This document shows positions 7,663-58,800 of a DNA stretch of 64,000 nucleotides, in pieces. The position numbers and the translations under genes are program-made. The notes under the pieces were generated by a model. The model worked only from the letters and a program-made list of their open reading frames with translations, was not told the DNA's origin and searched no databases. The stretch comes from Callorhinchus milii. Its lineage: Eukaryota. The stretch spans positions 40,116,001 to 40,180,000 of the forward strand of contig NW_024704742.1 of the NCBI RefSeq assembly GCF_018977255.1, in the 5' to 3' direction. How positions within the stretch are numbered: position 1 is the stretch's first letter; each line of letters starts with the position of its first letter.

Positions 7663-10574
7663 TAATGTCTTTTCCTTAACAAAGAAGATCAGATTTAATG
7701 GTAAAGCCTAATTTCAATGGGATAAATGCTTTAACTAAAACTTTATATTTTACTGGCAAATAGTTGCCCAAATAAATGTACAAGATCTGGATAATATATG
7801 TGTTACCAGTGACAAGTTCAATATTATTTTTTTATAGCAAAATAATATTAATTTTAAATAGTTGTAATTATTGTTGGGTAAATAGTACTAGGTTTTGGGG
7901 TGCATTGTGATGATTATTTTGTTACAGACAAGTCAGTGGCATGAGAAACAGTGCTAGTAAAAATACAACAACCCTCTTTCCCCATGAACCCACATACCTC
8001 ATAAAAAATATTACTAAAACTGCATGGTAAGCAGTTCAGTGAACTTGCAGACATTCATACACAGTCTGAACCTCTTGATCTAGTCACATCTGCTCATATC
8101 TGGCTGCTGTAGCATTTAAACACGTCATCAATACTATTGTGCAATCCTTTTTAATCTACATGAAATTTATAGATAATAGTTTAATGTGCTTGTCTGGTTA
8201 TTTAGGTTATTATCAGTTAGAATAAAATTGTTGTGCACATATTGGCTGCTGGGTTCGCCCACAAAATACACTCAGCCACATCACATTAGAGTATATCCTG
8301 TGAAGTGCTTTGAGACATCTCAACGATCTCAGCGCTATATCAAATTCAAGGATTTGTTATTGTTATAATGATTAATAAACTAGAAATAGCATTCAACGCA
8401 GGGTGGCATAAGAGTGGTATTGAGTCTTACTGAGGATCTAATAATAATAATAATCCTTGAATTTGATATAAGCAGAAAGTGTAAGATGCTGGATAATATG
8501 AGAGTTAATGATGGCTTCCATAAACTTATGTGATAGATATACAGTGGCTTGAACTAATATAATACACAAAGATTAACTTTCTTAGGGATGGGTTAATTAC
8601 AAATACAATGTCTACAAGGAAGAAAAGATGAGCTCAAGAGACTGGAGCAGTTACCAGTAAAGCGAAGGAAGAACTAGGGAGTGATTTGACAGTAGTGGAT
8701 TACAAACATTATTAATAATATGTTATACCAATGCTTCATAGAGATGTTAACATGGTGTGCAATTCAGTATATCAAAAAGAACATAGAAACTTTAAAAAGA
8801 ATGCTAAGAATGGTTCAAGGCCTTAAGTATATTCTGTGTACATACTGCATAGAGCTTAGAGTTGTCTCGAAGACGTAATAAGGTGCTATATCAAATATAG
8901 GACCCTTATAGGATTATTATTAAGACACTAAATTCAGAAGAAAGACTCAGGAGAATAGAATTAGTTTCAATGGAATGAAAATCTAGGAACACATAATACA
9001 GATGCCATATTTAGAATAATGAAAGGTATAAATGTGAGCAGGATATTTATTCACCTACCAAGTACATATTACATTTTGCAGTGAATCCTGTGAAATGCTT
9101 TGAGGCATTCTCCTGACTTCAAAGGCACTATTTCAAAAGCAAGGATTATTATTATATAACTCGATTTTTGACTGTAGAACTGGAAGACAATATAAAATTC
9201 ACAAGAACTGGACTGGAGGTTAGAGGAATCCTTCCCAATCCCTACAAACAAATATACATAATCACGCTTGTAAAATAATGGAATCGACTTCAAAATAAAT
9301 AGTTCATTCTCTTTAAAAGTGTCTAAATCAATATCATCTTAAAAAAAAGGAACAGTGGTCAGTAAGCTAAAGGTATAGCAACATTTCTGTTTCATGACTG
9401 TTTTAGGGCAATACTGTGCACAAATTGGTTTCTGCATTTGGCCACAAATGCATTGCCACTACACTTCACAGTAAAATCTTGTGAAGCATCTTGAAACATC
9501 TCGACAATGTGACAAGGCTCTATATAAAATGCAATGATTATGAGGATTATCATTATCATTGTAAAGGTTATAAAAAAAGTGCAAAAGCTTAGGAGGGGAA
9601 GGGGGAATGACAAAATTAGATAGCATATGTCAATTTGAGAAAATAACCAACCATATTGAAAGTATTTCAATATGATTTAAGCACTTTGAGATGTCCATCC
9701 AATTGAAAGGCAGTATATAATTGTAAATTGTATTGTGATTATATTGTACGTATGTTGTAGAGGGAATAGCCTTAATGGATCAAATGGCTCTTTTATTGTT
9801 TGCTTGACCGTCACAAATCCTGAAGATATGGCAAGCCAGTAGATTCAGAACTTGCCTTACTGTTTTATTCATGATATGATTATGAAGCTTGCTGAACTGT
9901 ATGTTTGTGAACAATATCTAATACCATGGCCTATGGTTTTGAGATGCAGGGAAATGTCCAATGCCAGATCTTGAAAATATTGCAGTGTGGTTTAATCCAC
10001 CAGGGGGAGCGCTTGCCAACCTTTTGTAGCATTTAAAGTACTTTTTTTTACTCAGAATTAAGATGGTGTTGGTTGAAACCCGTGTTGCCTGTTTTATATG
10101 GACATCCAGTTATCATAGTTTTGCTTTATGGACATCAATATGTATTTTGCGTCAAAACATGGAAGTGGAGGTGAGGGAATCTAGTACCAGTGAGGTATGA
10201 TCTTAAGAGAAATAATTGATCCTATAACAAAATTTACCTATATTTTGCACATTTCGGTGCTCACATGGATTGAATTACAGTCTACACTCAGTAATCTAAA
10301 CCCTAACCAGAAGCAATCGATACACAACAAAGCATATAAGTGGCCCAAGTCTACAGATAGTGCTGGATCACTGTACTTTTAAATATGATGCTGCACATTA
10401 TCAAACACAATTAAATTCACCTTCATTCCATGAAAGCATCGAGATGTTTCTTAAATGAGAATAACAGGTGGTAAACATTTTTAATACATTCAATAATATT
10501 CGAAAAGAAAAGTACGTTTGTTGTAATATCATAAAATGGGCCGTTTATAATAATAATCCTTGCATTTGATACAG

Positions 10575-18489: not shown

Positions 18490-20229
18490 TACTGGCATAG
18501 GAAATGGTAACAAACACTATGCATCTCTCAAGGGTGTGTGGGTGGAAGTGGTGAAACAAGAAACAATACACATATAGTACCAGGTACGTTGTTTACTTTC
18601 CAGTATTGGTGAGTAATAGCAGGATACAAAGAAGAAAGGAACAAGCTCACCTTCCTCAATCACAGTTGATGTGCAGCCCAAAATATATATACTGTATACT
18701 TGTGCTCAAAATAACAATAAAATGGGGATGAGGGGAGAAGCACTCTGTGAGTGTTCCAGAGATAGGAACTGAATGGATAGGGAAGATAGGTTAATCTTCT
18801 ATGCAAAGTTACAATAGTGAGGAAGAAACAAGAGGGAGCACAGGGCATTGGACAAGAGCCAGCCAAAGTAGCCAAGGAGACAAGTGCTGGAATGCTCTTG
18901 AACATTTCAATCGCTGAAAACTACTGTGGGATTGGGGATTAGGATTTGTAATGTAGCACATTTAATGATGGGACAGACTGTTTTCTGTCACCTTACTGAC
19001 TATGATATAGTCAGTTGCTGTGACAGTCAAGTAGATTGCCTTAGAGATTGGTCAACACCACTGGCAGATACCATTATGGCACCAATGCATTCATTGCCTT
19101 CATTCCAGTGGATATCTATCCCCATCCCTGCAAGACATGACAGGGGAAAGAAAAGACCATTACCAGTAGCAAACCATATGAAAGAAATTCAAGGTGTTGA
19201 TACTTAAAACAAACACTTGATCCTGATAGAGGGTATAAGACTCTTGTATTGTGCAGATTGCAAGATAAAACAGAGTTCAAAAAAACCAAAAGAATCAAGT
19301 ATGTGTTTAATAGATCAACAGTGCAAGTAATTGCCTGCACAACAAAATCCACTGTACAACTATTTACATCTTTGCTGATTCGATATATAAAATCATTTTG
19401 AACTGAATTTCAATTCAAACCTTTCAAACGTTAAAGCAAAGATCATTTCATTAAGTAGACGGCCTGTTTGCCTACAAAAACAGGCACTACATTTTACAGT
19501 AATTACTGTGAAGTGCTTTGAGACGGATATAAAGCACTATACAAATAAAAATTCTTCAGATCTGCAGTACATAGAGATCTTAATTTAATAACTAAATTTC
19601 TAAAAAGTCAGAGGCTATTTCCTTCTGTCCCCCCCCCCCAAACAATACGTTTGGTGCAAGCCTCCAAATTATTTAAGCAAAAATATTTTCATCAAGTGAG
19701 TTCACATGTGATCATACTGCAGGAGAATCTGGAGTGGTTTAGATACAAATCCCAAACATGGAACAGACTTTGTGCACATTTTAAATTGTTAAACCATTTA
19801 CTATAAATGTAGCAACACTGATCATAGTGCCAGGAATGAGTGGTTTCAATATCAACCCCAAAACATGGAATACACCTTTGGTGCATATTTTACACTATTA
19901 AACCATTTACTTATACTATAAAGGTAGCAATACTGTTCAGGAATAAGCATTGTGCAGAGGAAATGTAGAATGAAATGTCTACAGCAGCAGACATGGTGAG
20001 TTGGGGGAGGAAACAAAAAAAAATCAACAAATAGAAAGTGAGATGATGCGATTGAAACAGTTGCACCCACTAATAAACACCATTTACAGCTCAATTACAC
20101 ATCAGGTAATTGTTACAGAAGCTGCATCACAAAAATTAGAGCACTTTTCCTTTAAAAAAAAATGGAGTTTTTGCTTACATCAGCACCCAAAATGTGAGCC
20201 TGAAATCAGCCAACAGTTAAGAGGATATT

Positions 20230-20533
20230 TTACTGAAACCTCTGCCTGGCTTTCTCCCTTTTCTGATTCCAGTAATCATCTCTAGACGATGTAGCGTTGT
20301 CAAGATCAGCACTTCTTCCTTTCTTGCTGACCTTTCTGGGTCTCTCAGCAGATCCTGCCGTTGGATTTCCATCCTCGGGTTTCACTTTTTGTGCAGAAGT
20401 ACAAGTGTCATCTTGTACCATTCGTCTTAAAATACTCAGATTTGATTCATAACGAGACCGTATGCTTTTCTTTATGACATCCACAATATGGACATCACAA
20501 TCAAACAAGACCTTTACAAATTCCAAGTATGCT
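20230..20533 (-). CDS. STC2: Stanniocalcin exon 4 (terminal coding exon)
   Basis: Acceptor ttcttttttcaacAG-type tract; reads (G)AYLEFVKVLFDCDVHIVDVIKKSIRSRYESNLSILRRMVQDDTCTSAQK...RQRFQ*, matching STC1 YYNRLVRSLLECDEDTV...ILQTDHC and STC2 ...FCTSAIQK. Confidence 0.9.
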
Positions 20534-23500
20534 CTGTTGAAAAAGAATTTTATATAAAAAAAGTTAGGTTCTACGGATCTTTGTAATTCATCCAGTACCC
20601 TTGAGAGAAAAACAAACGGTACATGTTCATAAAGCCCATGTTCTAAGGAAAGATGTAATGCAAGGATTAGGTACAAGATTCATAATATGAATGTACAAAA
20701 GAAACTAATCTTCAGGCAAATTTAAATAACTTGCAATTATAAAGCACCCTTCATGTAGGGTAACGTCTCAGACTGCTACAAAATGGGGTTGGATGCCAAA
20801 GAAAAATAGGAGGAGGGAGATGGGGAAGGTGACTATAGACATGATTGAAGAGAATAGGTTTTTAGGATTTAAAGATAAAGAGAAATAAAGACAGAAGGGT
20901 TAGAGGGAGATAGTTCCAGAGGTTGGGGGCATTGTAGCATAAAGCTCGGCCATTGGTGGTGTCAGAGAGAGCGGGGACATGCACCAGGTCTGGTGAGCGA
21001 CAGGAAGCAAGCAGAGGAGTGGAGAAGGCAATCACATTCAGACATTTGGAACTTGTTACTACTGCTTTTTACAGCTTCTAAATACTCCATAACACAGCAC
21101 ATTGAAAATATAATGTAGTCTCCTATATAATCGCAGTCACCTCTATCCAAGGTGCCTTCCTTCAGTCCAATGTAGGAACAAGGACCTTAACTTTATACAT
21201 TGCTTTGTTCCTAACTGTTCCTCTGTTGACTTGAAATTACTATTATGGAGGCCCAGAGCTTGATTAGTACTTCACTGCCGTGCTGCCATCAAAACCAATA
21301 TTTTTAAAGACTGATGAAGTTTCAACCCTAAAATGTTTTGATTTATTTTAAGGAGCTAGAAGTTTAAGATCAATTAACCTAATAAAATAAATACTGACTT
21401 GTATTATTGGCCAGATTTGCTTATTTCAGAGTAGCAAGTATTATATGGACAGACAAATATTTACTGCTGCACTGTAAAAATATTTAAAATTCCTACAAGC
21501 TTTAGTATAATTATATTGAAATGCAAATCCATACAAATAAAAAGTCTGTCCAACTGCCCTGCAATCATCAAATGGTAACATTTTATTTCCTCCAAGAAAG
21601 TTTAACAGTGGTAGTATCTAACTAGTCTAAAACTAATTTCCAAATTAAGAATTTCCAAAATGTTGCATTTCTTCAATGACAGTCTTAAAGCTAATATTCG
21701 GAGGATATCGAGACTGAGTTTTAATGTGCTGAGCATGTTATCTTCTGGAAACTTCAGCATTAGAAGAGCAATACCAGTTTCATTCTGGACGACACAGATT
21801 TCCAATTGCTAAAGAGAATATTGATATTACATTCCGTAAAGAGCCCAGTTTATAAAAATGCATCGCAGTTAACTCATCTTGGTAGTAATAATAATCCTCG
21901 CATTTGATATAGTGCCTTATCACGTCATTGAGATGTATCAAAGCGCTTCACAGGATGCACTGTAAAGTGGATTGACTGTATTTTGTGTGCAAAACGCGGT
22001 AGCCAGCTGTGCAAGCAGTGTCCCACAAACAGCCATGCAATGAGCGACCAATTTTATTTGGAGGATTCTCTTAAAGGGGCAGCACCCATTAATTCCAGCT
22101 GAATCAGAGGATAAACAAAATGTGTTCCTAAAATAAGTTATCAGCTCTCTTTAGATCGATGACATGCAGCTTTAATCCAACAGCTAAGGAGCCATGATTC
22201 GGAACCCCAAATGGTGAATATAGTGACACCTGTAACAGGTTCAGGTGGAGGCTTAAGTTGGACCCAGGCTTCCCAGGGTTGTGGAGGAGAAAACCTGCTC
22301 CTATTCCTTTACAGCACCCTCTACTGGTTGTACACGTGTGTGGCAGCCTGGTGGGGAAACTGCAGGCTCAGCTGTGATACTCTGGTCAGGGAACTGTTGA
22401 TACTCACTGCAAAGGCTCACACATCAGCAATGGCCACTTGGGACAGGGCACCAGAGGCTGATAAGCAATTGGGAAACCGCACCCTAGCAACAAGCCAGAC
22501 CAGGAGCAGAGGGGAGAACATTTGCCAACGGAGAGAATTTTAAAAATTGGACACATTAAATTGATTTAAAAAACTATAATTTTGGTCTTAGTCTAGGCAG
22601 GCACAGATGTTCTGCCTTCAAAGCTGGGTAAACTGGCCTTCCCCCATGAGCAACCATTAACGATTGCTTGAAATGCTGGTTAAGGAATGCTCAGCATTTG
22701 GAACACTCAGCATTGAATTTCACACTTTGCTATTTGCCAGGCACTGTGGAATCAGCTCAGAGGAACACTTTATGTACAAATGAAGGCAAAGGCCTTAAAG
22801 ATTTCTCTCTCACTTTCTCCTCTTCTCGTTCTCTTCCTCCCCAACGCCAAAATGGCATAAGGTGAGCTAATGAGAGAAAGGTGCACTTCTGATCTTTTGC
22901 TGAAGACTTCTTTCCCCCATTCTGTATCAAACCACCATGAGAAAAGCACCTCATTTACACAATCTACTCTGAAAAATATAGGAGGTGATACATGCGAGTT
23001 ATGGGAACATGAGACAGGATGTCTAACCGGGGCCTAAATGTTTCCTATAAAATTTGGAATCGCAATATGAGCTCTTCAAAATGTTTATAAAAGGTATTGT
23101 TTAAAAAATATTCAAGTCATAATGAAAAAACATAGCATGGTTATCTGGTAGCACAGTTTAGGCAGGTACAGTTGATATGATAAGTTAACTCCAATATATA
23201 GTTTTGTTGGGGACTTAATCTAAGAATGAAAGATGCATTTCTCTAGACTGTAGATGACCCAGTATGTACTTACCCATTTAACAGCAGATCATGTAAGTCA
23301 ATCATTTCTGCAAAAGCATTTACATTATCATGTGCTATGGCACAGATGTCAAAGTTCTGGTAACAATCCTTCTGCAGTTCAGAAAGGATTTCCTGTATTA
23401 CTGAACATCTGCGAATATTACAGCTGAATCTTGACTTAATCCCATTAGCATTACACTTCAGGAAGTCTTTGATAAACAGTTTTCCCTATTAAAAAAAGAA

Positions 23501-26500
23501 AAAAGTTTTAATAACTGCATCCTTCAAACCCACAAGTTAATTACTTTATATGCAAATATGCTTATTTATGTTATATCTTTGTATACTGATTTGCTGAATC
23601 CATTATTTGTCTATCTAACGAATCAAACTTAAGTTTGCAAATCTCCATAATCATACTGGTGCAAAGTACAGTATTTACATTCAGGTCAGTTCTCAGATTT
23701 ACATAGTGATACAGTACGGAAACAGACTATTTGGCCTAACCGATCCACCCCAGCGTTTATACTCCACACCTATTCCTCTCTCCTATATTCCTCTATTTTT
23801 TTCTCTCTTATGTATGCATAATTCTAACCAATACCTATGTACCAACAAGACTTTTGACCGCCAAATAGTTGTGTTGCCTGTATACACATTGGCATTGCGA
23901 TCTCCTGTATTCTTGGGAGGCAGGAACATTTCTTTCTTATTTTACTGATTTTAACATTTGGGATTTGGATTCAAGCCACCCACATGTGGACGATTCCTCT
24001 TTTTGTGCAGTTGGTGTCGCTTGAAAGAACACAAAGGGAACAGAAGTCAGGAGAGCTTTTTGTTTATGCACCAATCAGAGAGAGGAAAACTTGATAAGCA
24101 AGTCTGTCTAGTTTCAAAACAGAAGACAGCAGGGCAAGTTAAAATCTCTGCCTAGTGCACCGAGTACGACACAGTGCAATGTTCCCCAGGCTGTAAGTGA
24201 CCAGAGTTAGCACATTATCATGAGGATACAAAGAGACAAAGAGAAAGGACCCAGTGATTTTTTTCCGGGGATGAGATGGGGGTGGGTGATAAAGGGAAGA
24301 GTAGTTTTAGGGGAAAAAAATCACTCTGATTGCTCTTACACTTAAGTGCACAATATTAGTCAATAATGCTCTGGCCTGGGGACACCAAGAAAGACTGCCA
24401 AATTTAACGCTTTCTGAGGAAGGGAGGGAAGATGTTTCAGATAGGCTAAAACTTATGTTTAGTAGTTTTTCTAGAAAAAACAAAACCATTGCAAGAATCT
24501 AAAAACTGTCAGAACATCCATCTTTGGCAATGTAAACAATTCAAATTCACAAATAAATTTACATTACATGACAAACCCGGTTTTACGGGGACTCAACCCA
24601 GCTCACACAAGAGCAAATTCCAAACCTTAGTGCAGTTTATGAAAGAAATCTCCTGTGCTGTATGTTAAAGAGAACCACTCTTTAATTTGGGCCCTAGTTA
24701 GACTTTAGATAGGATTATCTCAGAGGATTATTCAGCCTCTCAGCCCCTAGGCTCTGGAACTCTATCCCCCAGTGCCTTCACCTTGCCTCCTCCCTTTCCT
24801 CCTTCAAGGCTGGTCTCAAGACCTTTCTCTTTGACCGTGCCTTCAGCTCCCCTCTCGACTCTCTACCGCCTCCTCCCTTCCCTCCCCTCACCCTGACCAT
24901 TTCGCCCCTGCTCGGGTCCTGACCCAACTGTACAGCGCCTTGGGACGTCCTCCCGACGTGAAAGGCGCTCTATAAATGGAATCTTGTTGTTGTTGATTAG
25001 TTTATTTGAATTATTTACTTTGCTTTAAACATCCAACTCTTATTTCCTTCAAGTCCTGCCTCAAGACCCTCCTTTTCAACCATGCCATCAGTCAACCCGC
25101 TTCCCCTCCCCTCTCCCCCCATAACCCCAGCTCTGGTCTGAAATGCTGTACACTGTCCAGCTCCTTGGGACGTCCTCCCGATGTGAAACGGCTATACAAG
25201 TGTAATCTTGTTGTTGTTAAAAAAGATTGCTGCAGCACTATACATGGATAGTACAGTATTTTGGTTAGATCCACCAGCCCCTCTCATCCCCCGATGATGA
25301 ACTGCCATGTGAGAAAGCTTCAGAGAATGCCAGAAGCGGCAGGAGGCAGCTCAATTTGATGGCTAACATGCATTAAAACAATTCAAACGGTAGATGGTTT
25401 CATTAAATCTGAGCTTCAGGAGGACTGGAGATCCAAAACATATCGTTACTTTGCACTTACTAAAAGAAAGCCTAGATGCATGGTTTCCTTTTGCTCAGGA
25501 AAGTAGAATTGATATTCTGCCATTTCCCATCTCCCTTGGCATACACCTTGGCATTAATCATTTTCTAAATCTTAGTGACTGAAGCAGAAGTCGTCTGGGG
25601 TTAAGAGTGTGCAAGCTGACCACTTTTAAAGAAATTACCAATAATATAGTTGTACAAACATTTCAAGAAATACATTTTACTGAATATTTGAATCAACAAT
25701 TGAGAGTGGATTTCCCAATTTCAAATGACATCAAAACAACTTGATTTATCTGTATTCCTTATACTCTCCATTTTGTCTTTAAAACTGCAGTGAGATCATA
25801 ATACTATAGGTAGATCTGGATTATATGTTAACCATAATTATAGAAGGGAGGCAGTATGAAAGATCACCCTAATTCTTCATGCAACATAATTTAACCCCCT
25901 TGGCAGGAGGGAAGGTAAAGTGCGGTTGAACTTGCTTGGCAACTGAATTCAGTAAACTCTGTGTCACGGTCTTGGCTGTCCGGTTCCTGAGCCAAGTGGA
26001 CATGTAGTACTCCGAGGCACTGCTGATGATAGAACAGCCAGCGTGGCTCATCATCAGGACTGGGGAGGGGCAGACTCATCACTAGATGTAGGGCTCCTGT
26101 TAATACTGGTCACCCCCACTTGTCCTTCACTGTCCGGTGCCTTATTGTTGTTGTTGTTGCCTTGTTGTTGTCCGAGCTAGACAAGCAGTGGGAAATTTGC
26201 CAGGCACTGGGAAACTTGACAGACAGTGCTCTCAATGGCTAGCTATGTTGTTTTGGGTGATTAAACTCCAGCAGTACTCCAACACAGACTCTTGGGTCCC
26301 CAAGACTTGGATCTTGCCAACCAGCACCTAACACTCTCCTAAATGGAGTAAGCAGAGTGCATTCTCCAGGAAAGGAGTACACATTCCATTCCAGACACAG
26401 GGAAATTTCCATGTGCAGGTTATACATGTATGTGGAACTCCCAGGCTTGTTTATATACTCGAAAACATGGTGATGGGTTCCCATATTTGCCAGACACCTA

Positions 26501-29500
26501 GCTAACATAAAGAAATGCAACACACTTATCACTCAATTGAAAATTCAGGTTACCTGAAAACTTTGGTCAGTATTCCACATCATTTCTCTTTTCCTCAGGG
26601 TAAAAACTCTGGAGATGGTTTCACAGATATCACCAGCATGATAGTAACTCACCCAGCAGGCTAGTCTTCAGTCAGGTCAACTATCTACACAAGTTTAATC
26701 CTTTCCACACTCAATAATTACACACAAATACAGGGTTCAATGATAGTAATGCAGAACAGAATCTCAACTGATTTACTCCATCTTAAGCCCAGAGACATGG
26801 GGCAATTGCAGCATCTTCACTCATTATAGCCAGTGTATATAGTCTAAGATGGCATTCCAATGGAGCAATATTTTGTATATCCGGTTCCTGAGCCAGAAGG
26901 GGCTGCAGTGCACCAGGGCACTGCTAATGACAGCACAGCCTGCCTGGCTCATCGGCTAGACCTGGAAGGGCAGACCAGTTATTGGGGGCAGGGAGTCATC
27001 CCACTCAGCTCCTGGTAACCCTGCAAGCCAAAGCCCTAATGGGTAGGGTGGTCCTAATTGGACAAGCAGCGGGAAAGCTTGCTAGACAGCAATATTAATG
27101 GCAAGCTACACTCTGGGGTCCCCACTGCAGATACAAAGTATAGAGTTTTGATTGTGTACACTGGTTAAATCAGTAAATGTAGATAGGTACTGATTTGACT
27201 CAAATTCATTTTGTACAATCACCGTGCTTTAAATTTCACTGATTACATTTCAGTTTTCACTACGAGATGCCCGTTGATAAATGTGACCGTTCAAATGTTC
27301 AAATTTCACAAGATTGATTCTTCCTCAACATCATTTCTTAATCAGTGCAAAGGAGGAACAAGTGTTACACAAGACATCAGCTCCAAGATGTATATAAATA
27401 AACACACTGCAGCAGACAACTTAAATCGCAATGCACGTTTGAAATCTCTAATACTCAAGACATGTTTACATAGTCATTTAAATATTTTACCTGTGCATCA
27501 AACTTCCCTGCGTTCTGAAGAAATATTCTGCAGACTTCATACAGGTTATGTATTTCACAAGTATGGTTTTCCAGACATTCAAAAACTGCACATCCCACAT
27601 CACCAGCACTGAGCAAACAGTTACTTATTTCAACTGTTGGATAAAATAGACATTTTCCTAATTATTTTGCATATTGGGCAAGTCAGCCCACAGGTTTAAA
27701 AAAAACAACTATTGCAATGCTTATGGGAAGAAGGGTGAATTATATAAAACATATTTAGCTAGCAGTGTGTTGGTCTCAATCTCAATGGGTTTAGCAGCAT
27801 CTGAAAGAGAAAAATAGGTCAGCACATCAGGTATATCCCTTCATTAGATGCGACACAACTGACCTGCTGTGCAACCTTTTTTATTTAAAAACAACTCAAT
27901 GGCCTTGGATAACAGCTGAATAAATCGCATGAACTCTTTTGTCATTCGAGCTCTACTCAAGTATCTGTCTCAACCATAGCCATCTTCTGTATAAACAAGA
28001 CGAGCAGCTGTGTTGAAATATGGTCTGTAGCACAGAACAGTCCACATCGAGGATCCATGTAAGCTACGGCAGATCGCAAATCCATTTGAATATATGGAGC
28101 TCTGTTTATTGAAGAGCGACATAAATCAGCAAAGGTCAAATGTTAAACTTAAAAGGGGCCAGGCACTCTTAAAAAAAGGAATACTCGGTTGCTCTAAAGG
28201 CAATCTGCGATCTATAATATCTGCTTCTGATGGCTGAGGGCTTGTGATCGCCGTTTAAAGTACATAATAGCACATTTCAACATAAACTGTGCATTTCCCC
28301 CCCACTCCCAGTGTCAACTGGAAAAAAACTGAGCTTTGTAAAGACAACAACTGGGTGATGCTCAGCATAAAACTAAAGGAAAATGAATAATAATATAATG
28401 CAGGTACTGATACAATAGATTTTTTTGTTTCTAGATTAAGTATTCTGTATCACAAGAATATATGCTATATAGCTAATTCACCTTGCGGTATATTCTGTGA
28501 GGCACTTTGAGACATCTCAACTACATGATAAGGCGCTATATCAAATGCAAGATTATTAATAATACAAAGGAATGGGGGGGGGGGGCAAGAGAAATCCTTC
28601 CAAAATAAAATACATGCCTAAAGTAAGAGGAAAACAAGCATGTTCGCTGTTTAAAAATCTGAACCACAGTTTCCATTAAACCTGCGCACAAACGATAGCA
28701 ATTTTTGCGCCATTGGTTACTCCCAAGAGGCTGGGATGGTTCTCCTTTTTAGAGCAGAGAAGGTTAAGAGGAGAGTTAATAAAGTTGTTTTTAAAATTTG
28801 GTAAAAGTAAAAAGGCGCAATCTCTGACAGGGTCACTTCACACACTGTCTCTCTCTCTCTGTCTGTCTGTCTCTCTCCACAAGCGGCTCCCATAACGACT
28901 CTCCTCTAACCCTGAGCCCAGCCACTCTCTCTCACTGACTTACTCTCTCACTGAGCCGCTCGCTCACTCTCACTGAGCCGCTCGCTCACTCTCACTGAGC
29001 CGCTCGCTCACTCTCTCACTGACCCGCTCGCTCACTCTCTCACTGACCCGCTCGCTCACTCTCCCACTGACCCGCTCGCTCACCTTTCCACTGACCCGCT
29101 CGCTCACTCTCTCCCTGAGCCGCTCACTCACTCTCTCCCTGAGCCGCTCACTCACTCTCTCCCTGAGCCGCTCACTCACTCTCTCCGAGCCGCTCACTCA
29201 CTCTCTCCCTGACCCGCTTACTCACTCTCTCCCTGACCCGCTCACTCACTCTCTCCCTGACCCGCTCGCTCACTCTCTCCCTGACCCGCTCGCTCACTCT
29301 CTCCCTGAGCCGCTCGCTCACTCTCTCCCTGACCCGCTCGCTCACTCTCTCCCTGAGCCGCTCGCTCACTCTCTCCCTGAGCCGCTCGCTCACTCTCTCC
29401 CTGACCCGCTCGCTCACTCTCTCCCTGAGCCGCTCGCTCACTCTCTCCCTGTGCTGCTCACTCACTCTCTCCGAGCCGCTCACTCACTCTCTCCCTGAGA

Positions 29501-30904
29501 CGCTCACTCACTCTCTCCCTGAGACGCTCACTCACTCTCTCCCTGAGCCGCTCACTCACTCTCTCCCTGTGCTGCTCACTCACTCTCTCCGAGCCGCTCA
29601 CTCACTCTCTCCGAGCCGCTCACGCTCACTCACTCTCTCCCTGACCGGCTCACTCACTCTCTCCCTGAGCCGCTCACTCACTCTCTCCCTGACCGGCTCA
29701 CTCACTCTCTCCCTGAGCCGCTCACTCACTCTCTCCCTGAGCCGCTCACTCACTCTCTCCCTGAGCCGCTCACTCACTCTCTCCCTGTGCTGCTCACTCA
29801 CTCTCTCCGAGCCGCTCACTCACTCTGTCCGAGCCGCTCACGCTCACTCACTCTCTCCCTGACCGGCTCACTCACTCTCTCCCTGAGCCGCTCACTCACT
29901 CTCTCCCTGACCGGCTCACTCACTCTCTCCCTGAGCCGCTCACTCACTCTCTCCCTGAGCCGCTCACTCACTCTCTCCCTGAGCCGCTCACTCACTCTCT
30001 CCCTGAGCCGCTCACTCACTCTCTCCCTGAGCCGCTCACTCACTGTCTCCCTGAGCCGTTCACTCACTCTCTGAGCCGCTCACTCACTCACTCTCTGAGC
30101 CGCTCACTCACTCTCTCCCTGAGCCGCTCACTCACTCTCTCCCTGAGCCGTTCACTCACTCTCTCCCTGAGCCGCTCACTCACTCTCTCCCTGAGCCGCT
30201 CACTCACTCTCTCACTGACCCGTTCACTCACTCTCTCCCTGAGCCGCTCACTCACTGACTCTCTCACTGACTCTCTCACTCACTCACTGACTGACTCTCT
30301 CACTCACTCACTGACTCACTGACTCTCTCACTCACTGACTCTCTCACTCACTGACTCTCTCACTCACTGACTCTCACTCACTCACTCTCTCACTGACTCA
30401 CTCTCACTCTCTCACTGACTCACTCTCACTGACTCACTCTCTCACTCACTGACTCTCTCTCTTTCACTCACTCTCTCACTGACTCACTCTCTCACTGACT
30501 CTCTCACTCTTTCACTCACTCTCTCACTGACTCACTCTCTCACTGACTCTCTCACTCTTTCACTCACTCTCTCACTCACTGACTCACTCACTCACTGACT
30601 CTCTCTCTTTCACTCACTCTCTCACTGACTCACTCTCTCACTGACTCACTCTCTCTCTCACTGACTGACTGACTGCCGCCGGTGTGTGTTGCTCACCTGT
30701 GCTGTGCACTGACAGCCGCACCTTGCCCTGCACAGAGCCCGAGCCTCCCCCTCCTCCTCCCCCTCCTCCTCCTCCACCACCTCCGCCGCCGGCAGAGCGC
30801 TTCTCCGGCCCCAGCTCACTGCCCTCCGACTCCTCTCCGGCCACCGCGTGAAAGCCGAGGAGCAGCGACAGGACGGCCAACCTCGGCGGCACCAGCAAAC
30901 CCAT
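20230..30904 (-). CDS. STC2: Stanniocalcin, STC2-like but divergent; 4 coding exons join(30904-30697, 27633-27491, 23485-23274, 20533-20230), 867 nt, 288 aa secreted glycoprotein
   Basis: All introns are GT-AG with matching phases (1, 0, 2). Internal exons are 143 and 212 bp as in vertebrate STC1/STC2. Signal peptide present, all 11 family cysteines present, conserved N-glycosylation site (NHT). Family assignment is secure; orthology to STC2 is not (see findings). Confidence 0.93.
22330..22515 (+). mobile_element. LF-SINE-like relic (3' half) in stanniocalcin intron 3
   Basis: GGCTCAGCTGTGAT...ACTCACTG..AAGGCTCACACATCAGCAATGGCCACTTGGG..AGG.CACCAGAGG resembles the LF-SINE consensus as recalled. 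Confidence 0.6.
23274..23485 (-). CDS. STC2: Stanniocalcin exon 3
   Basis: 212 bp, ttaatAG / GTaagt; GKLFIKDFLKCNANGIKSRFSCNIRRCSVIQEILSELQKDCYQNFDICAIAHDNVNAFAEMIDLHDLLLNG. Not in the supplied ORF track. Confidence 0.95.
24730..24997 (+). mobile_element. L2 LINE 3' end
   Basis: Nearly identical to 5370-5630 (AGGCTCTGGAACTCTATCCCCCAGTGCCTTC...GGGACGTCCTCCCGACGTGAAAGGCGCTCTATAAATGGAATC(TTG)n). Confidence 0.88.
27491..27633 (-). CDS. STC2: Stanniocalcin exon 2
   Basis: 143 bp, ccaacAG / GTaaaa; VEISNCLLSAGDVGCAVFECLENHTCEIHNLYEVCRIFLQNAGKFDAQ versus human STC2 AEIQHCLVNAGDVGCGVFECFENNSCEIRGLHGICMTFLHNAGKFDAQ. Not in the supplied ORF track. Confidence 0.95.
28925..30675. repeat. Minisatellite (24-bp unit CTGAGCCGCTCACTCACTCTCTCC and variants) grading into CACT/GACT/CTCT low-complexity repeat; stanniocalcin intron 1
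   Basis: Visible tandem array ~28945-30260 followed by (CTCA/CTGA/CTCT)n to ~30675. It explains the RERVSE and SLTLSL ORFs. Confidence 0.97.
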
Positions 30905-55886: not shown

Positions 55887-58800
55887 GTAAGCATGGTTTA
55901 CTCTTTCAGTAATTTTATACAAATCTTTTGTTTACCAAATCATCTTTCACTTAGTTCTTGAACTTCCATTAATATTTTATGCCTATTTGATTTTGTTGCA
56001 ACTATACATTTTGTTTTCTGTATTCTTTGTTTCTTCTCTCTTTCACTTTCTCTCTGTGTTAAACATATCATTTTTTGGAGTGAGAGAAAAGTGCCATTAC
56101 TTCTTTCAATGGCCTCTTGCTGCCAGTAAGCGGGAGATGAGAAAATAACCTCAAATGACTTGCCTTCTCCCATTGATCCTGTAGATAGTTGTTAGCACTC
56201 TCACACCTGCCAAATATAGCCAATATTTCCACAGTTAATTCTCATTTCTCTGGTAAAATCTATATGCACCACATTAGAGTTAAACCGACTTTAAAAGCTC
56301 TGCATGTAAGATGATATAGTGAAAATTGCCAATAAAAGAGTTAACCTATATCTCTGTATTTGTACCTTTGCAGTTGATATAAGTCAAGCACAAGAAAGCA
56401 AGGTGAATAGTTCAATTGGGAAAACTGTATTGCTCCCATGTTACAGTTCCATTAATGATCAGTACACCAATTTCACGTGGACGAAGAACAATTCAGTGTT
56501 AATAATGGGAACCGCTGATAAATTTGATTCTGATGCTCACGTTAAGATTTACAGAAATAGGATTCAACTGCCACAGAACTCTTCATCTCAGAATCTCTCC
56601 CTCACAATTAGTGACCTGAAACTGGAAGATATGGGAATGTACAGATGTGAGACTCACAGCAAAAAACAAACTGTGAAATATAAAGAGATCTTTCTTACTA
56701 TCACCAAAGGTAAGATGGGAGAGGGAATTTTGCTGATAGTATCACAAGCAGTATTTGCCTCCTACTTCTTGTTTGTTTTACAAGTTTAGCTGAACAGATG
56801 AAAATGGGTTGAATTGTTCTAAATGCGTAAAGGTAAAGTCTGTTCTTCAAATGTTTAAACGGAAAGTCTGTTTTCTTGTATTAGTACTCTGTTTTTTGCT
56901 CTAAAAGTGCAACAAGAAACAACTAAATGTGTTTAATATAGTGTCTTATCATGTTTTCAAGATGTCTCATAGCGCTTCACAGAATATACTCTAAAGTGAA
57001 TTGACTGTATATTTTGTGGGTGATATATACTGATTATTTTGTGGGTGAAATATACTATATACTGTATATTTAGTTGTTGGTGGTGGTTGGAAGCTGACTG
57101 CGAGCAGAACAAACTCCCCCCCCTAAAAAAAACACCCACCCAACAGTCGACATTAAAGATCCCTTGGTACCTTTCAAAAAAGAAAGGAATTTCTCCTGGT
57201 GTCCTGGCCAACAACCTCTCAATAAGTTTAGTGTTTTCTCTCCTCTAATATGAAAAGTATTTCTCTCTTTATATATTTACAGATCAGGTATCAAGACCCA
57301 TAGTGCAAGTTTTTCCAGGCCAAAATGTATCTGAGGGAAGCACAATTCTACTGAAGTGTGAAGTTGGGAGCAGCTCTCTGCCTATCTCTTATTCGTGGTA
57401 CAAAAAATCTAAGAAGACGGAAAAACCCAAAGACATCATGCATTATAAACAGACACTGACACTGAGTCCTGCAAAGAGAGAGGACAGTGGCTTTTTCTTC
57501 TGTAAAATCAGTAAGAATTCCAAAACGAAGAGGAGCAGCACGGTGGAGATTCTAATTTCTGGTAATCAGTCTTGTTATTGTAAACCGAGAATGTAATTTC
57601 TATTGTAACAGTTTCAGACCCTATTTAAAGTGAATTGGAATTGAATTTTGCAGATACCGTCCCAACCTTATTGGAAACAAGCTCCAACATTTCCAATGAT
57701 GTCAGCCCTCGCAGAACCCCACAGGTGGTGAATTACGTGATCAGCTTTACTTCTGGAGTGATACTGTTCATTGTTTGTACAATCTTGATCGTACGATCAG
57801 TTAAGAAAAGACGAAAAGGTACGTGTTTACAGAAATTGAACTATTCTCACTCTAAAATTGTACTACAGTCTAACTCATTGAGATATTGCGTATAGTTTAT
57901 TCCTTCCTTTTGTTTGCTGATGATATACCTCGTGCTAAAATTGACAAATCAAACCAACTCCTCAAACAAATTTTTGTATTTAGTTATGAATTAAGATGGA
58001 TTATTATTGCTCACACTTTATTTTCTCCTATTTTGTTGTCCCCTTTTCTTCCATTTGCTGTCCAAAGGGGATTTGAACCACTATCCACTGCCAATAGTGT
58101 TCTGAGATAACCAGAAGTGAGAGAGCACTTGTGGATAACTCGCTCTCTGATTCAATTTTCCTTCTTTAGAGAAGCATCAGATCTTCCACAGTGACACAGC
58201 TGGGATGAAAAAATGAACGATTGAACATTATGTCTCACCCATGCATGACGTGCCCTGTTAGGACTTGGAAAATATAAACTTAGAATCAATGAAAAAGTTA
58301 TCACCTAACTTGAATTTTAACCTAATATTTCACTCGAGAGGTATGGATGAAAAAAGCTCTTCATTTGATTTTGATCTGATCCTTCCACAATATCCATCCT
58401 ATCTTCTTCCTATCATGGTATCAAACTGTTTCTTAACTGATCCCAGTATCCTGGCTTTATCTATGCTTTCATACTGTCTTAAAGTACTGCTTTATTAGAA
58501 ATATGTTTGCCTACAAAATACACAATCACTATCCTTTACAGTAAATCCTGCAAAATGTTTTGAGATGTCCTCCTGACATGAAAGGTGCTCCATCGAATGC
58601 AATGATTCGTATTACTAGGTCACGTGGTCTAAGTGTAATGGAGGTAAAAAAGTGTGTAGCTGAGTGTACCAGATCAGATTCAAAGAGAGAAAGAGATATC
58701 TGATGAGCTGTAGAACTAATTCAACTCTGCAAAGGAAACAATACTCAGTGAATTGAAAGGGAAAAATAGATTGAAATTAAAGGCTAGACATTATTAGAAA

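What the first reader, a model, noticed from the sequence alone, without database searches (positions are those of the whole stretch)
20230..30904. Stanniocalcin with a mosaic of STC1 and STC2 diagnostics: candidate third vertebrate paralogue
Seen: the rebuilt 288-aa protein has 12 cysteines, the 11 family cysteines plus one in RFSCN. Known: that extra position aligns with STC2 Cys120 (RFGCI), the residue STC2 uses to bind and inhibit PAPP-A covalently; STC1 lacks it. Exons 1-2 are STC2-like (RLS..ST, AGDVGC, AGKFDAQ; also HDLLL in exon 3). However, the two further STC2-specific cysteines (Cys197/Cys205, VQCEQ and SLCSI) are replaced (RYESN, ILRRM). The last Cys-to-Cys spacing is 31 residues as in STC1 (29 in STC2). 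ANG..S..IRRCS and VQDDTC resemble STC1, and there is no His-rich tail. Inference: this may be a retained ohnologue lost in mammals, combining STC2-type covalent pappalysin inhibition with an STC1-type C-terminal region.
Basis: partly seen in the sequence, partly recalled or inferred. Interest (0 to 1): 0.8.

Follow-up and report, generated by a model that had tools for sequence, protein, structure and literature searches.

The report
Elephant shark third stanniocalcin gene
This is the elephant shark's copy of "stanniocalcin-like", a third stanniocalcin hormone gene that cartilaginous fishes keep and bony vertebrates lack; it is real and transcribed, but it was already annotated and was described in print in 2025.

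Summary
A four-exon gene on the minus strand (window 20230-30904) encodes a 288-aa stanniocalcin with 12 cysteines. The extra cysteine (Cys139) aligns with Cys120 of human STC2. Transcript contigs from 4 of 4 runs laid carry the exon 4/3 and 3/2 junctions.

The core reading, a third paralogue absent from mammals, is supported. Four shark species carry STC1, STC2 and this "stanniocalcin-like" gene on three different contigs. The window protein groups with the shark STC-like genes (98/99), outside STC2 (97/95) and STC1 (100/99).

It is not new. Kjeldsen and Oxvig 2025 (PMC11925022) describe STC1, STC2 and STC-like in cartilaginous fishes, with loss of STC-like in bony fishes, and their dataset lists this protein.

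The "STC1-type" C-terminal traits are also present in shark STC2, so they are probably ancestral and do not make a mosaic.

Two points go beyond the paper's main text:
- The gene lies in a block NKX3 / NK2 / STC-like / BOD1L1-like / CPEB, with a parallel CPEB / BOD1 / NK2 block on contig 13. That favours origin by large-scale duplication.
- No STC1 or STC2 was found in this assembly.

Deep branching order and pappalysin inhibition remain untested.

The parts
30697..30904 (-). Exon 1, coding part. It holds the start codon (30904-30902), a hydrophobic signal-peptide-like N-terminus, a run of 16 Gly, and the KVRLS motif.
   Evidence: The donor GT follows 30697. The N-terminus matches the published row for XP_007887365.2. 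There is no Pfam hit.
27491..27633 (-). Exon 2, with Cys75, 84, 89, 95 and 104 and an NHT sequon at residue 92.
   Evidence: PF03298 at 76.9 bits. AG/GT boundaries. Transcript contigs join 23484 to 27490 in 4 of 4 runs.
23274..23485 (-). Exon 3, with Cys128, 139, 144, 158 and 165.
   Evidence: PF03298 at 89.3 bits. Aligns to human STC2 residues 99-168. Both junctions are seen in contigs of 4 of 4 runs.
23420..23422 (-). Codon of Cys139 (RFSC), the equivalent of human STC2 Cys120.
20230..20533 (-). Exon 4, coding part with the stop codon. It holds Cys200 and Cys232, and a basic tail that sharks conserve.
   Evidence: PF03298 at 31.6 bits. Contigs join 20533 to 23274 in 4 of 4 runs. Tail conservation is shown in the alignment of 7 shark orthologues.
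20401..20403 (-). Codon of Cys232, the last family cysteine. In STC1 and STC2 this is the inter-chain (dimer) cysteine; that role is recalled, not tested here.
   Evidence: The column is Cys in all gnathostome rows that reach it.
19500..20229 (-). 3' untranslated region, at least this long.
   Evidence: Contigs of runs X1 and X5 run unbroken from 19500, the edge of the laid stretch, to 20533 (table 8).
28931..30666 (.). Minisatellite in intron 1. The unit is 24 bp, with about 57-73 copies. It starts about 30 bp below the exon 1 donor site.
   Evidence: It also blocked read laying.

Best explanation
The gene is the elephant-shark (Callorhinchus-type) orthologue of 'stanniocalcin-like' (STC-like). 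STC-like is a third gnathostome stanniocalcin lineage, kept in chimaeras and sharks and not found in bony vertebrates.

Shown here:
- The gene is intact and spliced into RNA as modelled.
- It is conserved: 67% identity to a cow-shark orthologue.
- It carries the ten family cysteines, the eleventh C-terminal cysteine, and a twelfth at the position of STC2 Cys120.
- It sits in a block NKX3-type homeobox / NK2-type homeobox / STC-like / Ig gene / BOD1L1-like / CPEB.
- That block has paralogous counterparts on contig 13 (CPEB / BOD1 / NK2) and contig 7 (NK2 / NKX3).

Inferred:
- It arose with those blocks in the early vertebrate genome duplications. The block corresponds to the human 4p15 segment (NKX3-2, BOD1L1, CPEB2; positions recalled), which has lost its STC.
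- The product is a secreted, N-glycosylated homodimer linked by a disulfide through Cys232.
- It inhibits pappalysins (PAPP-A, PAPP-A2) as STC2 does, probably by a disulfide from Cys139 to the protease, and so lowers release of IGF from IGF-binding proteins.
For: Gene and family.

Orthologues: 7 shark 'stanniocalcin-like' proteins at 76-82% identity to exon 3, plus a partial C. milii model at 100%.

Three genes per shark genome: Carcharodon, Mustelus, Chiloscyllium plagiosum and Stegostoma each hold STC-like, STC2 and STC1 on contigs of three different lengths.

Careful ML tree of 46 rows:
- STC-like clade including the window, 98/99.
- Shark plus bony STC2 without it, 97/95.
- STC1, 100/99.
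- Teleost stc1l nests inside STC1.

Cys120 column: Cys in 9 of 9 chimaera and shark STC-like rows, in every STC2-type row that covers the column (19 of 20; one mammalian model lacks that exon) and in 2 of 2 cyclostome rows. It is absent in 19 of 19 STC1 rows.

Position 120 was confirmed on the PDB chain 7y5q_C.

Fold: the AF2 model of the Heptranchias orthologue has mean pLDDT 71.9, with the core mostly above 80. It matches four PDB chains at E<=0.001, and all four are STC2 chains from PAPP-A complexes. The best is 8a7d_P, with target TM 0.87 and rmsd 2.6 over 162 columns.

Transcripts: spliced contigs in 4 of 4 runs.

Synteny:
- Homeodomain hits at C1:40079115 and C1:40101387. Their ORFs are NKX3-like and NK2-like. 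The nearest Atlas clusters are 'Nkx-3.2' at 0.96 and 'Nkx-2.5' at 0.96.
- A PF05205 hit at C1:40211787, followed on the same strand by a 1705-codon ORF at C1:40199951-40205065.
- CPEB ZZ domains at C1:40538515 and C13:7502511.
- BOD1-type exon 1 and an NK2 gene on C13.
- Only three NK2 genes of this subgroup were found, on C1, C7 and C13.

Print: Kjeldsen and Oxvig 2025, section 'STC1 and STC2' read in full, supplement searched.
Against: Sequence alone does not fix the deep order.
- ML gives (STC1,(STC-like,(cyclostome STC, STC2))) with only 70/65 and 77/82 support.
- The AU test does not reject STC-like plus shark STC2 as one clade (lnL lower by 14.5, p 0.144).
- It also does not reject STC-like plus STC1 (lnL lower by 1.36, p 0.414).
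- So a cartilaginous-fish-specific duplication of STC2 is not excluded by the tree.

Bony STC2 sampling was thin: 8 bony-vertebrate STC2-type rows in the careful tree (4 stc2a-type or tetrapod, 4 teleost stc2b-type), two of them trimmed, with no gar, coelacanth or human row.

The link of the C1 block to human 4p15 is indirect.
- It rests on a long BOD1-family exon, gene order, Atlas names (leads only) and unchecked earlier notes of human-chr4-type genes 31-40 Mb away on the same contig.
- No gene trees of the flanking families were made.
- The order NKX3 / NK2 / STC also recalls human 8p21 (NKX3-1, NKX2-6, STC1; recalled).
- Exon 2 of the BOD1L1-like gene was not found.

Function is wholly inferred. 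No binding or activity was tested. Two sawfish STC-like copies have Ser at the Cys120 column, so that cysteine is dispensable in at least one lineage.
Confidence: 0.8

Rival explanations
1. It is a duplicate of STC2 made within cartilaginous fishes, by a segmental or lineage-specific duplication, and not an ohnologue from the early vertebrate genome duplications.
For: - Shark STC2 is the best non-self match of the STC-like profile (E 1.1e-64).
- Both share the Cys120 column, the 31-residue spacing and the F/R states at the two 'STC2-specific' columns.
- The AU test does not reject STC-like plus shark STC2 as one clade (p 0.144).
Against: - The ML tree puts shark STC2 with bony STC2 (97/95) and leaves STC-like outside.
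- The two genes lie on different contigs in 5 shark species: Carcharodon, Mustelus, Heterodontus, Chiloscyllium plagiosum and Stegostoma.
- In this genome the gene's neighbours (NK2, BOD1 family, CPEB) are duplicated with it, and an NKX3 gene stands beside it. That fits the known four-fold NK-cluster paralogy (recalled) better than a single-gene copy.
Confidence: 0.12
2. It is simply the chimaera's divergent STC2 (or STC1) orthologue.
For: - No other STC locus was found in this assembly by five searches.
- It is flanked by an NK2 homeobox gene and a BOD1-family gene.
- It has Cys120.
Against: - It groups with shark STC-like at 98/99, and those sharks also have STC2 and STC1.
- Exon 3 is 76-82% identical to shark STC-like, but 49% to shark STC2 and 38% to shark STC1.
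- A separate CPEB / BOD1 / NK2 block exists on contig 13.
- It lacks the STC2 tail (HPNAH...SDIRR) that shark STC2 has.
Confidence: 0.03
3. It is an old third lineage, but on the STC1 side of the family. Cys120 would then be ancestral to all vertebrate STCs and lost in STC1.
For: - The AU test does not reject STC-like plus STC1 (lnL only 1.36 lower, p 0.414).
- Several motifs resemble STC1 (ANGI.S, IRRCS).
- The gene order NKX3 / NK2 / STC recalls human 8p21 (recalled).
Against: - ML places it with cyclostome STC and STC2, though weakly (70/65).
- It shares Cys120 with them.
- Its neighbours include BOD1-family and CPEB genes. In human these accompany the STC2 segment and the 4p15 segment, not 8p21 (recalled).
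Confidence: 0.05

Closest known systems
[quoted passage not shown]
   Same: It is this gene. Their alignment row agrees with the 288-aa model in every segment shown. They state that there are three paralogues in cartilaginous fishes, that STC-like was lost in the bony-fish ancestor, and that C120 occurs in some STC-like forms.
   Different: Their main text has no hit for synteny, syntenic, NKX, elephant shark, chimaera or Callorhinchus. It does not remark that C. milii contributes only STC-like to their dataset. The gene neighbourhood, the transcript check and the shark STC2 cysteine states are added here.
STC2 (human STC2 in PAPP-A complexes: PDB 7y5q, 8hgh, 8a7d, 8a7e)
   Same: - Cys at position 120.
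- Shared motifs AGDVGC and AGKFDAQ.
- The orthologue's model superposes on STC2 with target TM 0.84-0.87 at 44-45% identity.
   Different: - No Cys197/Cys205 pair.
- 31 residues, not 29, between the last two family cysteines.
- No HPNAH...SDIRR tail.
- Outside the STC2 clade (97/95).
- A different genomic block.
STC1
   Same: The ten-plus-one cysteine frame with 31-residue last spacing. Local motifs around ANGI.S..IRRCS.
   Different: STC1 lacks the Cys120 column in 19 of 19 rows. The STC1 clade (100/99) excludes this gene.
Cyclostome STC (Lampetra planeri P0018, Myxine glutinosa P0027)
   Same: Cys at the 120 column. They sit on the STC2 side of the ML tree.
   Different: Long branches. They lack the last cysteine column in the alignment used. 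Their relation to STC-like is unresolved.
Teleost 'stanniocalcin 1, like' (stc1l, the corpuscles-of-Stannius hormone)
   Same: It is another extra STC gene with '-like' in its name. An older UniProt model of this locus carries the name 'Corpuscles of Stannius protein' (P0008).
   Different: stc1l nests inside bony-fish STC1 and lacks Cys120. It is not the orthologue.

Membership tests
Stanniocalcin family (Pfam PF03298) | Match to the family profile above the curated cut-off | tested here: met
   Exons 2, 3 and 4 score 76.9, 89.3 and 31.6 bits against a cut-off of 23. The genome scan gives the same three exons.
Stanniocalcin family (Pfam PF03298) | Ten conserved cysteines in the family pattern, plus an eleventh C-terminal cysteine in gnathostomes | tested here: met
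   All ten columns and the eleventh (Cys232) are Cys in the window row.
Stanniocalcin family (Pfam PF03298) | Helical stanniocalcin fold as solved for STC2 | tested here: met
   Tested on the Heptranchias orthologue, not on the window protein. AF2 mean pLDDT is 71.9. All 4 PDB matches at E<=0.001 are STC2 chains, with target TM 0.84-0.87.
Stanniocalcin family (Pfam PF03298) | Secreted: N-terminal signal peptide | tested here: inconclusive
   A hydrophobic N-terminus is seen by eye. No signal-peptide predictor was run.
Cartilaginous-fish STC-like lineage | Groups with shark 'stanniocalcin-like' proteins to the exclusion of STC1 and STC2 | tested here: met
   Clade of 9 rows at 98/99. Exon 3 is 76-82% identical to 7 shark orthologues.
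Cartilaginous-fish STC-like lineage | Coexists with STC1 and STC2 in one genome | tested here: not met
   Met in 4 shark species. In this genome neither STC1 nor STC2 was found. This bears on the genome, not on the gene's identity.
STC2 orthology group | Cysteine at human position 120 | tested here: met
   The window has Tyr and Arg there. The pair is also absent in 6 of 6 shark STC2 rows, so it defines only bony-vertebrate STC2.
STC2 orthology group | Placement inside the STC2 clade | tested here: not met
   STC2 (shark plus bony) has 97/95 support without it. The AU test of STC-like plus shark STC2 is not decisive (p 0.144).
STC2 orthology group | Position between NKX2-5 and BOD1 (human order recalled) | tested here: inconclusive
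   NK2 and BOD1-family genes do flank it. However, the block also has NKX3 and a 1705-codon BOD1L1-type exon, and a second NK2 / BOD1 / CPEB block lies on contig 13.
STC1 orthology group | No cysteine at the 120 column; placement in the STC1 clade | tested here: not met
   The window has Cys139. The STC1 clade at 100/99 excludes it.
Covalent pappalysin inhibitor (STC2-type mechanism) | Forms a disulfide-linked complex with PAPP-A and blocks IGFBP cleavage | not testable with these tools
   Only the cysteine's presence is shown. The mechanism in human STC2 is taken from the text of PMC11925022.

The most novel reading that the evidence does not exclude
In the elephant shark, STC-like is the only stanniocalcin left. 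STC2 has been lost from an otherwise intact CPEB / BOD1 / NK2 block on contig 13. STC1 is missing together with its whole NK block. The surviving gene sits in the paralogous block that corresponds to human 4p15 (NKX3-2, BOD1L1, CPEB2). Chimaeras and bony vertebrates would then have kept reciprocal members of one ancient four-fold gene set. A single Cys120-bearing STC would carry all pappalysin control in this fish.
Probability: 0.35. Interest if true: 0.5.

Novelty: already known. Interest (0 to 1): 0.3.

Why it matters
Stanniocalcins brake IGF signalling by inhibiting the pappalysin proteases. A third lineage that keeps the covalent-inhibition cysteine shows what the ancestral jawed-vertebrate set looked like, and that point is already in print.

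What could still matter is the placement of the gene in an NKX3 / NK2 / STC / BOD1 / CPEB block, because this gives a way to date it to the genome duplications that does not depend on the gene tree.

The elephant shark may also be a natural single-STC vertebrate, which would make it useful for asking what one stanniocalcin suffices to do.

Tried and rejected
Orthology to teleost stc1l
- Suggested by the old UniProt name of P0008.
- Rejected: stc1l nests in STC1.

Weak genome hits
- L005 (E 0.157) and L008 (E 1.22) show no STC features.
- L014 on contig 18 (E 0.389) is 29% identical across what would be an exon boundary and carries a stop.
- All three were taken as chance.

Protein searches
- The search with the shark STC-like profile was capped at 8000 candidates and reached only STC-like rows.
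- The later family-wide search listed the best 120 of 230, almost all STC1. Gar, coelacanth and human STC2 were therefore never obtained.

RNA evidence
- No RNA holder is listed on record; the run kinds are guesses.
The part beside it was laid instead, so the exon 1/2 junction is unverified by reads.

Structure
- The first AF2 model, from 7 sequences, was poor (pLDDT 44.7) and was not used.

BOD1L1-like gene
- Exons beyond exon 1 of its Shg1 domain were not found by tblastn with a teleost BOD1 segment.

Pappalysin in this genome
- Pfam PF05572 (Peptidase_M43) gave no match.
- A split eukaryotic gene against a broad profile makes this uninformative, so nothing is concluded.

STC2 on contig 13
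- Only 90 kb (7700001-7790000) of the 158-kb BOD1-to-NK2 interval could be fetched.
- It holds no STC exon (best E 0.5).
- It has one 25-N gap at 7765631-7765655.

Other
- The Pfam scan of the Ig-gene exons failed because one co-submitted reference had stops and was not repeated.
- No complex prediction was sent. Homodimerisation is expected by homology, and a pass would not have moved the odds.
- The scan's own notes hold nothing near this place and only an unrelated Naegleria note for 'stanniocalcin'.

Full report
WHAT IS THERE

The minus strand of window 20230-30904 carries a four-exon gene: 30904-30697, 27633-27491, 23485-23274 and 20533-20230, the last including the stop. Every internal boundary is AG/GT. 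The 867-nt CDS gives 288 aa with 12 cysteines, at 75, 84, 89, 95, 104, 128, 139, 144, 158, 165, 200 and 232. Pfam's Stanniocalcin profile (PF03298, cut-off 23 bits) matches exons 2, 3 and 4 at 76.9, 89.3 and 31.6 bits. Exon 1, which holds the signal-like N-terminus and a run of 16 glycines, has no match.

Exon 3 aligns without gaps to residues 99-168 of the full-length human STC2 chain 7y5q_C. This puts the Cys of RFSC (residue 139) on STC2 position 120. There are three N-x-S/T sequons, at residues 92, 219 and 267.

IS IT A LIVE GENE?

The word index found 14 holder runs from 4 studies. Their kind is only guessed, and none is on record as RNA. I laid four runs from three studies on window 19500-28800.

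In 4 of 4 runs a contig joins 20533 to 23274 and another joins 23484 to 27490. The skipped parts have CT..AC ends, which is GT..AG on the gene's strand. Contigs run unbroken from 19500 to 20533. These are the modelled exon 4/3 and 3/2 junctions plus at least 730 nt of 3' UTR, so these runs hold spliced transcripts. It is supported only by unaligned contig ends beyond 27637 and by the published protein row.

An older UniProt model of the locus (P0008, 215 aa) shares exons 2-3 but has other ends, built from open frames inside introns 1 and 3. The contigs support the present model.

WHOSE GENE, AND WHAT KIN

Searching with exon 3 among longer proteins gave 8 hits among 26 candidates. Seven are shark proteins that NCBI names 'stanniocalcin-like', at 76-82% identity. 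The eighth is the partial Callorhinchus milii model, at 100%.

A profile of the seven sharks was searched against 1.84 billion cluster representatives. It found 162 proteins at E<=0.001. The best hit outside the group was a shark STC2 at 1.1e-64. Names for ten representatives and a family-wide search (230 hits, best 120 listed) show that sharks have three genes. Their contig lengths, in Mb:

| Species | STC-like | STC2 | STC1 |
|---|---|---|---|
| Carcharodon | 274.1 | 179.0 | 122.1 |
| Mustelus | 202.1 | 103.5 | 76.7 |
| Chiloscyllium plagiosum | 156.6 | 82.3 | 19.8 |
| Stegostoma | 194.1 | 79.4 | 20.6 |

No bony-vertebrate protein appeared nearer to the STC-like profile than STC2 does. Of the long hits after the shark STC-like cluster, ten were named and the rest were read by eye as STC2- or STC1-type.

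TREES

A quick tree used 50 rows. A careful IQ-TREE run used 46 rows. I had dropped four long or poor rows (out_P0048, Pristis P0010, P0031, P0021) and trimmed mis-predicted ends from four rows, two of which (the Crotalus and Poecilia STC2 rows) remain in the careful tree. The two trees agree:
- STC-like including the window: 98/99.
- Shark plus bony STC2 without STC-like: 97/95.
- STC1: 100/99, with teleost stc1l nested inside it.
- Lamprey plus hagfish: 100/99.

The order of these four groups is weak. ML gives (STC1,(STC-like,(cyclostome, STC2))) with 70/65 and 77/82. AU tests do not reject holding STC-like with shark STC2 (lnL lower by 14.5, p 0.144) or with STC1 (lnL lower by 1.36, p 0.414). 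The tree therefore shows a separate, old lineage. It does not date that lineage, and it does not by itself exclude a duplication of STC2 inside cartilaginous fishes. Bony STC2 was thinly sampled, because the last protein search listed mostly STC1.

THE 'MOSAIC'

A cysteine table was made over 53 aligned rows.
- The position-120 column is Cys in 9 of 9 chimaera and shark STC-like rows, in every STC2-type row that covers it, and in 2 of 2 cyclostome rows.
- It is not Cys in 19 of 19 STC1 rows, in 3 of 3 invertebrate rows, or in 2 of 2 sawfish STC-like copies, which have Ser.
Six of 6 shark STC2 rows have Phe and Arg there, and STC-like rows have Tyr/Phe/Ile/Leu and Arg.

The spacing between the last two family cysteines is 31 in the window, in 8 shark STC-like rows, in 6 shark STC2 rows and in 19 STC1 rows. 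It is 29 in 4 bony STC2 rows and 30 in 4 teleost stc2b-type rows. The 'STC1-like' C-terminal half is therefore the state that shark STC2 also keeps. The cysteine pair and the shorter spacing are novelties of bony-vertebrate STC2. What truly separates STC-like from shark STC2 is its own conserved basic tail in place of the HPNAH...SDIRR tail.

NEIGHBOURHOOD

The window is C1:40116001-40180000 of a 991.5-Mb assembly.

On contig 1:
- Homeodomain hits lie at C1:40079115-285 and C1:40101387-557, both on the minus strand.
- The first ORF is NKX3-like. Its nearest Atlas cluster is 'Nkx-3.2' at 0.96.
- The second is NK2-like, with the VAVPVLVRDGKPC stretch and a GIRAW end. Its nearest clusters are 'Nkx-2.5' at 0.96 and 'Nkx-2.3' at 0.95. 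Atlas names are leads only.
- Beyond the gene and an Ig-domain gene lies a BOD1-family first exon (PF05205, C1:40211787-867, minus strand).
- It is followed on the same strand by a 1705-codon Ser/Glu/Lys-rich open frame at C1:40199951-40205065. That is the BOD1L1 type, not the short BOD1 type; the human lengths are recalled.
- A CPEB ZZ domain lies at C1:40538515.

On contig 13 the same families recur in mirror order: CPEB at 7502511, a BOD1-type exon 1 at 7636009, and an NK2 gene ending GIRPW at 7794383.

On contig 7 an NK2 gene (712426) and a second NKX3 gene (746496, 71% identical to the C1 copy) lie together, with a CPEB 20 Mb away. A search with the C1 NK2 ORF found only these three full-length relatives, the C7 and C13 copies each 64% identical to it.

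From recalled human maps, the blocks resemble 4p15 (NKX3-2, BOD1L1, CPEB2), 5q35 (NKX2-5, STC2, BOD1, CPEB4), and 8p21 or 10q24. Earlier unchecked notes of this scan place IL-21-like, J-chain and SRP72 genes on the same contig, 31-40 Mb away. All three are human chromosome 4 genes.

I infer that STC-like belongs to the 4p15-type block, whose STC bony vertebrates lost, and give this about two chances in three. No flanking-gene trees were made, and the order NKX3 / NK2 / STC also recalls 8p21.

ONLY ONE STC HERE?

Five genome-wide searches hit only the window's three exons above noise. The queries were PF03298, the window's exons 2 and 3, Carcharodon STC2 and Carcharodon STC1. The search found these exons at 34-56% identity to shark STC2, so an orthologue at 70% or more should have been seen.

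Other points agree:
- Ninety kb upstream of the contig-13 NK2 gene hold no STC exon (best tblastn E 0.5), but do contain one 25-N gap. The other 64 kb of that interval could not be fetched.
- No Callorhinchus STC1 is among the 120 best family hits, while nine named shark and ray species are.
- The published dataset lists only STC-like for C. milii, against three genes each for whale shark, sawfish and devil ray.

STC2 thus looks lost from an otherwise kept block. STC1 is missing together with any fourth NK block, which could equally be an unassembled small chromosome. This is a lead, not a finding.

FUNCTION

Nothing was assayed. By homology the product should be a secreted glycoprotein dimer.

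A deep-alignment AF2 model of the cow-shark orthologue has mean pLDDT 71.9, with a mostly confident core. It matches four PDB chains at E<=0.001. All four are STC2 in PAPP-A complexes, with target TM 0.84-0.87.

According to the paper read, human STC2 needs C120 to bond C732 of PAPP-A and cannot inhibit without it. The window protein has that cysteine. I put covalent pappalysin inhibition at about one in two, and some form of pappalysin inhibition higher. The Ser in sawfish copies shows that the cysteine is not indispensable to the lineage. A Pfam search for the pappalysin catalytic domain in this genome found nothing, but it is uninformative.

WHAT IS KNOWN

Three library searches were run. 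Only one paper held both 'stanniocalcin' and 'STC-like' together with cartilaginous fishes: Kjeldsen and Oxvig 2025. I read its STC section in full and searched its supplement.
- It states the three-paralogue picture, the loss of STC-like in the bony-fish ancestor, and C120 in some STC-like forms.
- Its alignment holds this protein.
- Its main text has no hit for synteny, syntenic, NKX, elephant shark, chimaera or Callorhinchus.

Roch and Sherwood 2011 (passages only) and a 2026 review (passages only) mention no third vertebrate paralogue in the passages found.

VERDICT

The gene neighbourhood and the apparent absence of STC1 and STC2 from this genome are the only parts worth following up.

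Noticed in passing
Whole assembly G000; contig 13, 7.50-7.80 Mb; contig 7, 0.71-0.75 Mb: No STC1 or STC2 was found anywhere in this assembly. The CPEB / BOD1 / NK2 block where STC2 would be expected is present on contig 13. Only three NK2 (Nkx2-3/5/6-type) genes and two NKX3 genes were found, so a fourth NK block, possibly the STC1 one, is absent or unassembled.
   Followed up: partly
window 28931-30666: A 1.7-kb minisatellite (24-bp unit, about 57-73 copies, CT/CA-rich) fills the start of intron 1, about 30 bp from the exon 1 donor. Similar Ser/Leu-coding CT-rich arrays lie just upstream of the BOD1L1-like first exon, in long open frames at C1:40211751-40214122.
   Followed up: partly
window 56310-57892 (+): Exons of a membrane protein with Ig domains (a V-set-like exon, a second Ig-like exon, then a hydrophobic segment) lie between STC-like and the BOD1L1-like gene. 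The best PDB sequence matches are generic (an antibody light chain, pIgR, sodium-channel beta-4, CD4). The gene was not identified.
   Followed up: partly
C1:40199951-40205065 (-), loci L021-L022: A 1705-codon open frame of the BOD1L1-like gene holds dozens of near-identical SPEAESK(D/G)N repeats and SKSKEN-type repeats. This is an unusually repetitive coding exon.
   Followed up: no
Proteins P0010, P0011, P0012 (Pristis pectinata, one 145.6-Mb contig): The sawfish has at least two distinct STC-like copies on one contig. Both have Ser at the Cys120 column, one also lacks a family cysteine, and the models are short (170-200 aa). The lineage seems to be duplicating and decaying in rays.
   Followed up: partly
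window 23351 and 20488: All four runs laid read G for the assembly's A at 23351. Two runs read G for A at 20488. Both are third codon positions; the first leaves Phe unchanged.
   Followed up: partly
window 28536-28748 (-) and 22757-22954 (-): The UniProt model A0A4W3ID90_CALMI (P0008) builds its N- and C-termini from open frames inside introns 1 and 3. The transcript contigs do not support those ends.
   Followed up: partly
Protein P0028 (a teleost model, 445 aa): This is a fused gene model: a BOD1-type N-terminus runs into an stc2b-type stanniocalcin. It is probably a read-through artefact, and it incidentally shows the two genes as neighbours in that fish.
   Followed up: no
window 21677-21987, 24476-25408, 26964-27274, 28208-28800: Intronic repeat fragments draw very high contig depth in the RNA-like runs (up to about 126,000). 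This is presumably expression of dispersed repeat copies elsewhere, not of this intron.
   Followed up: no
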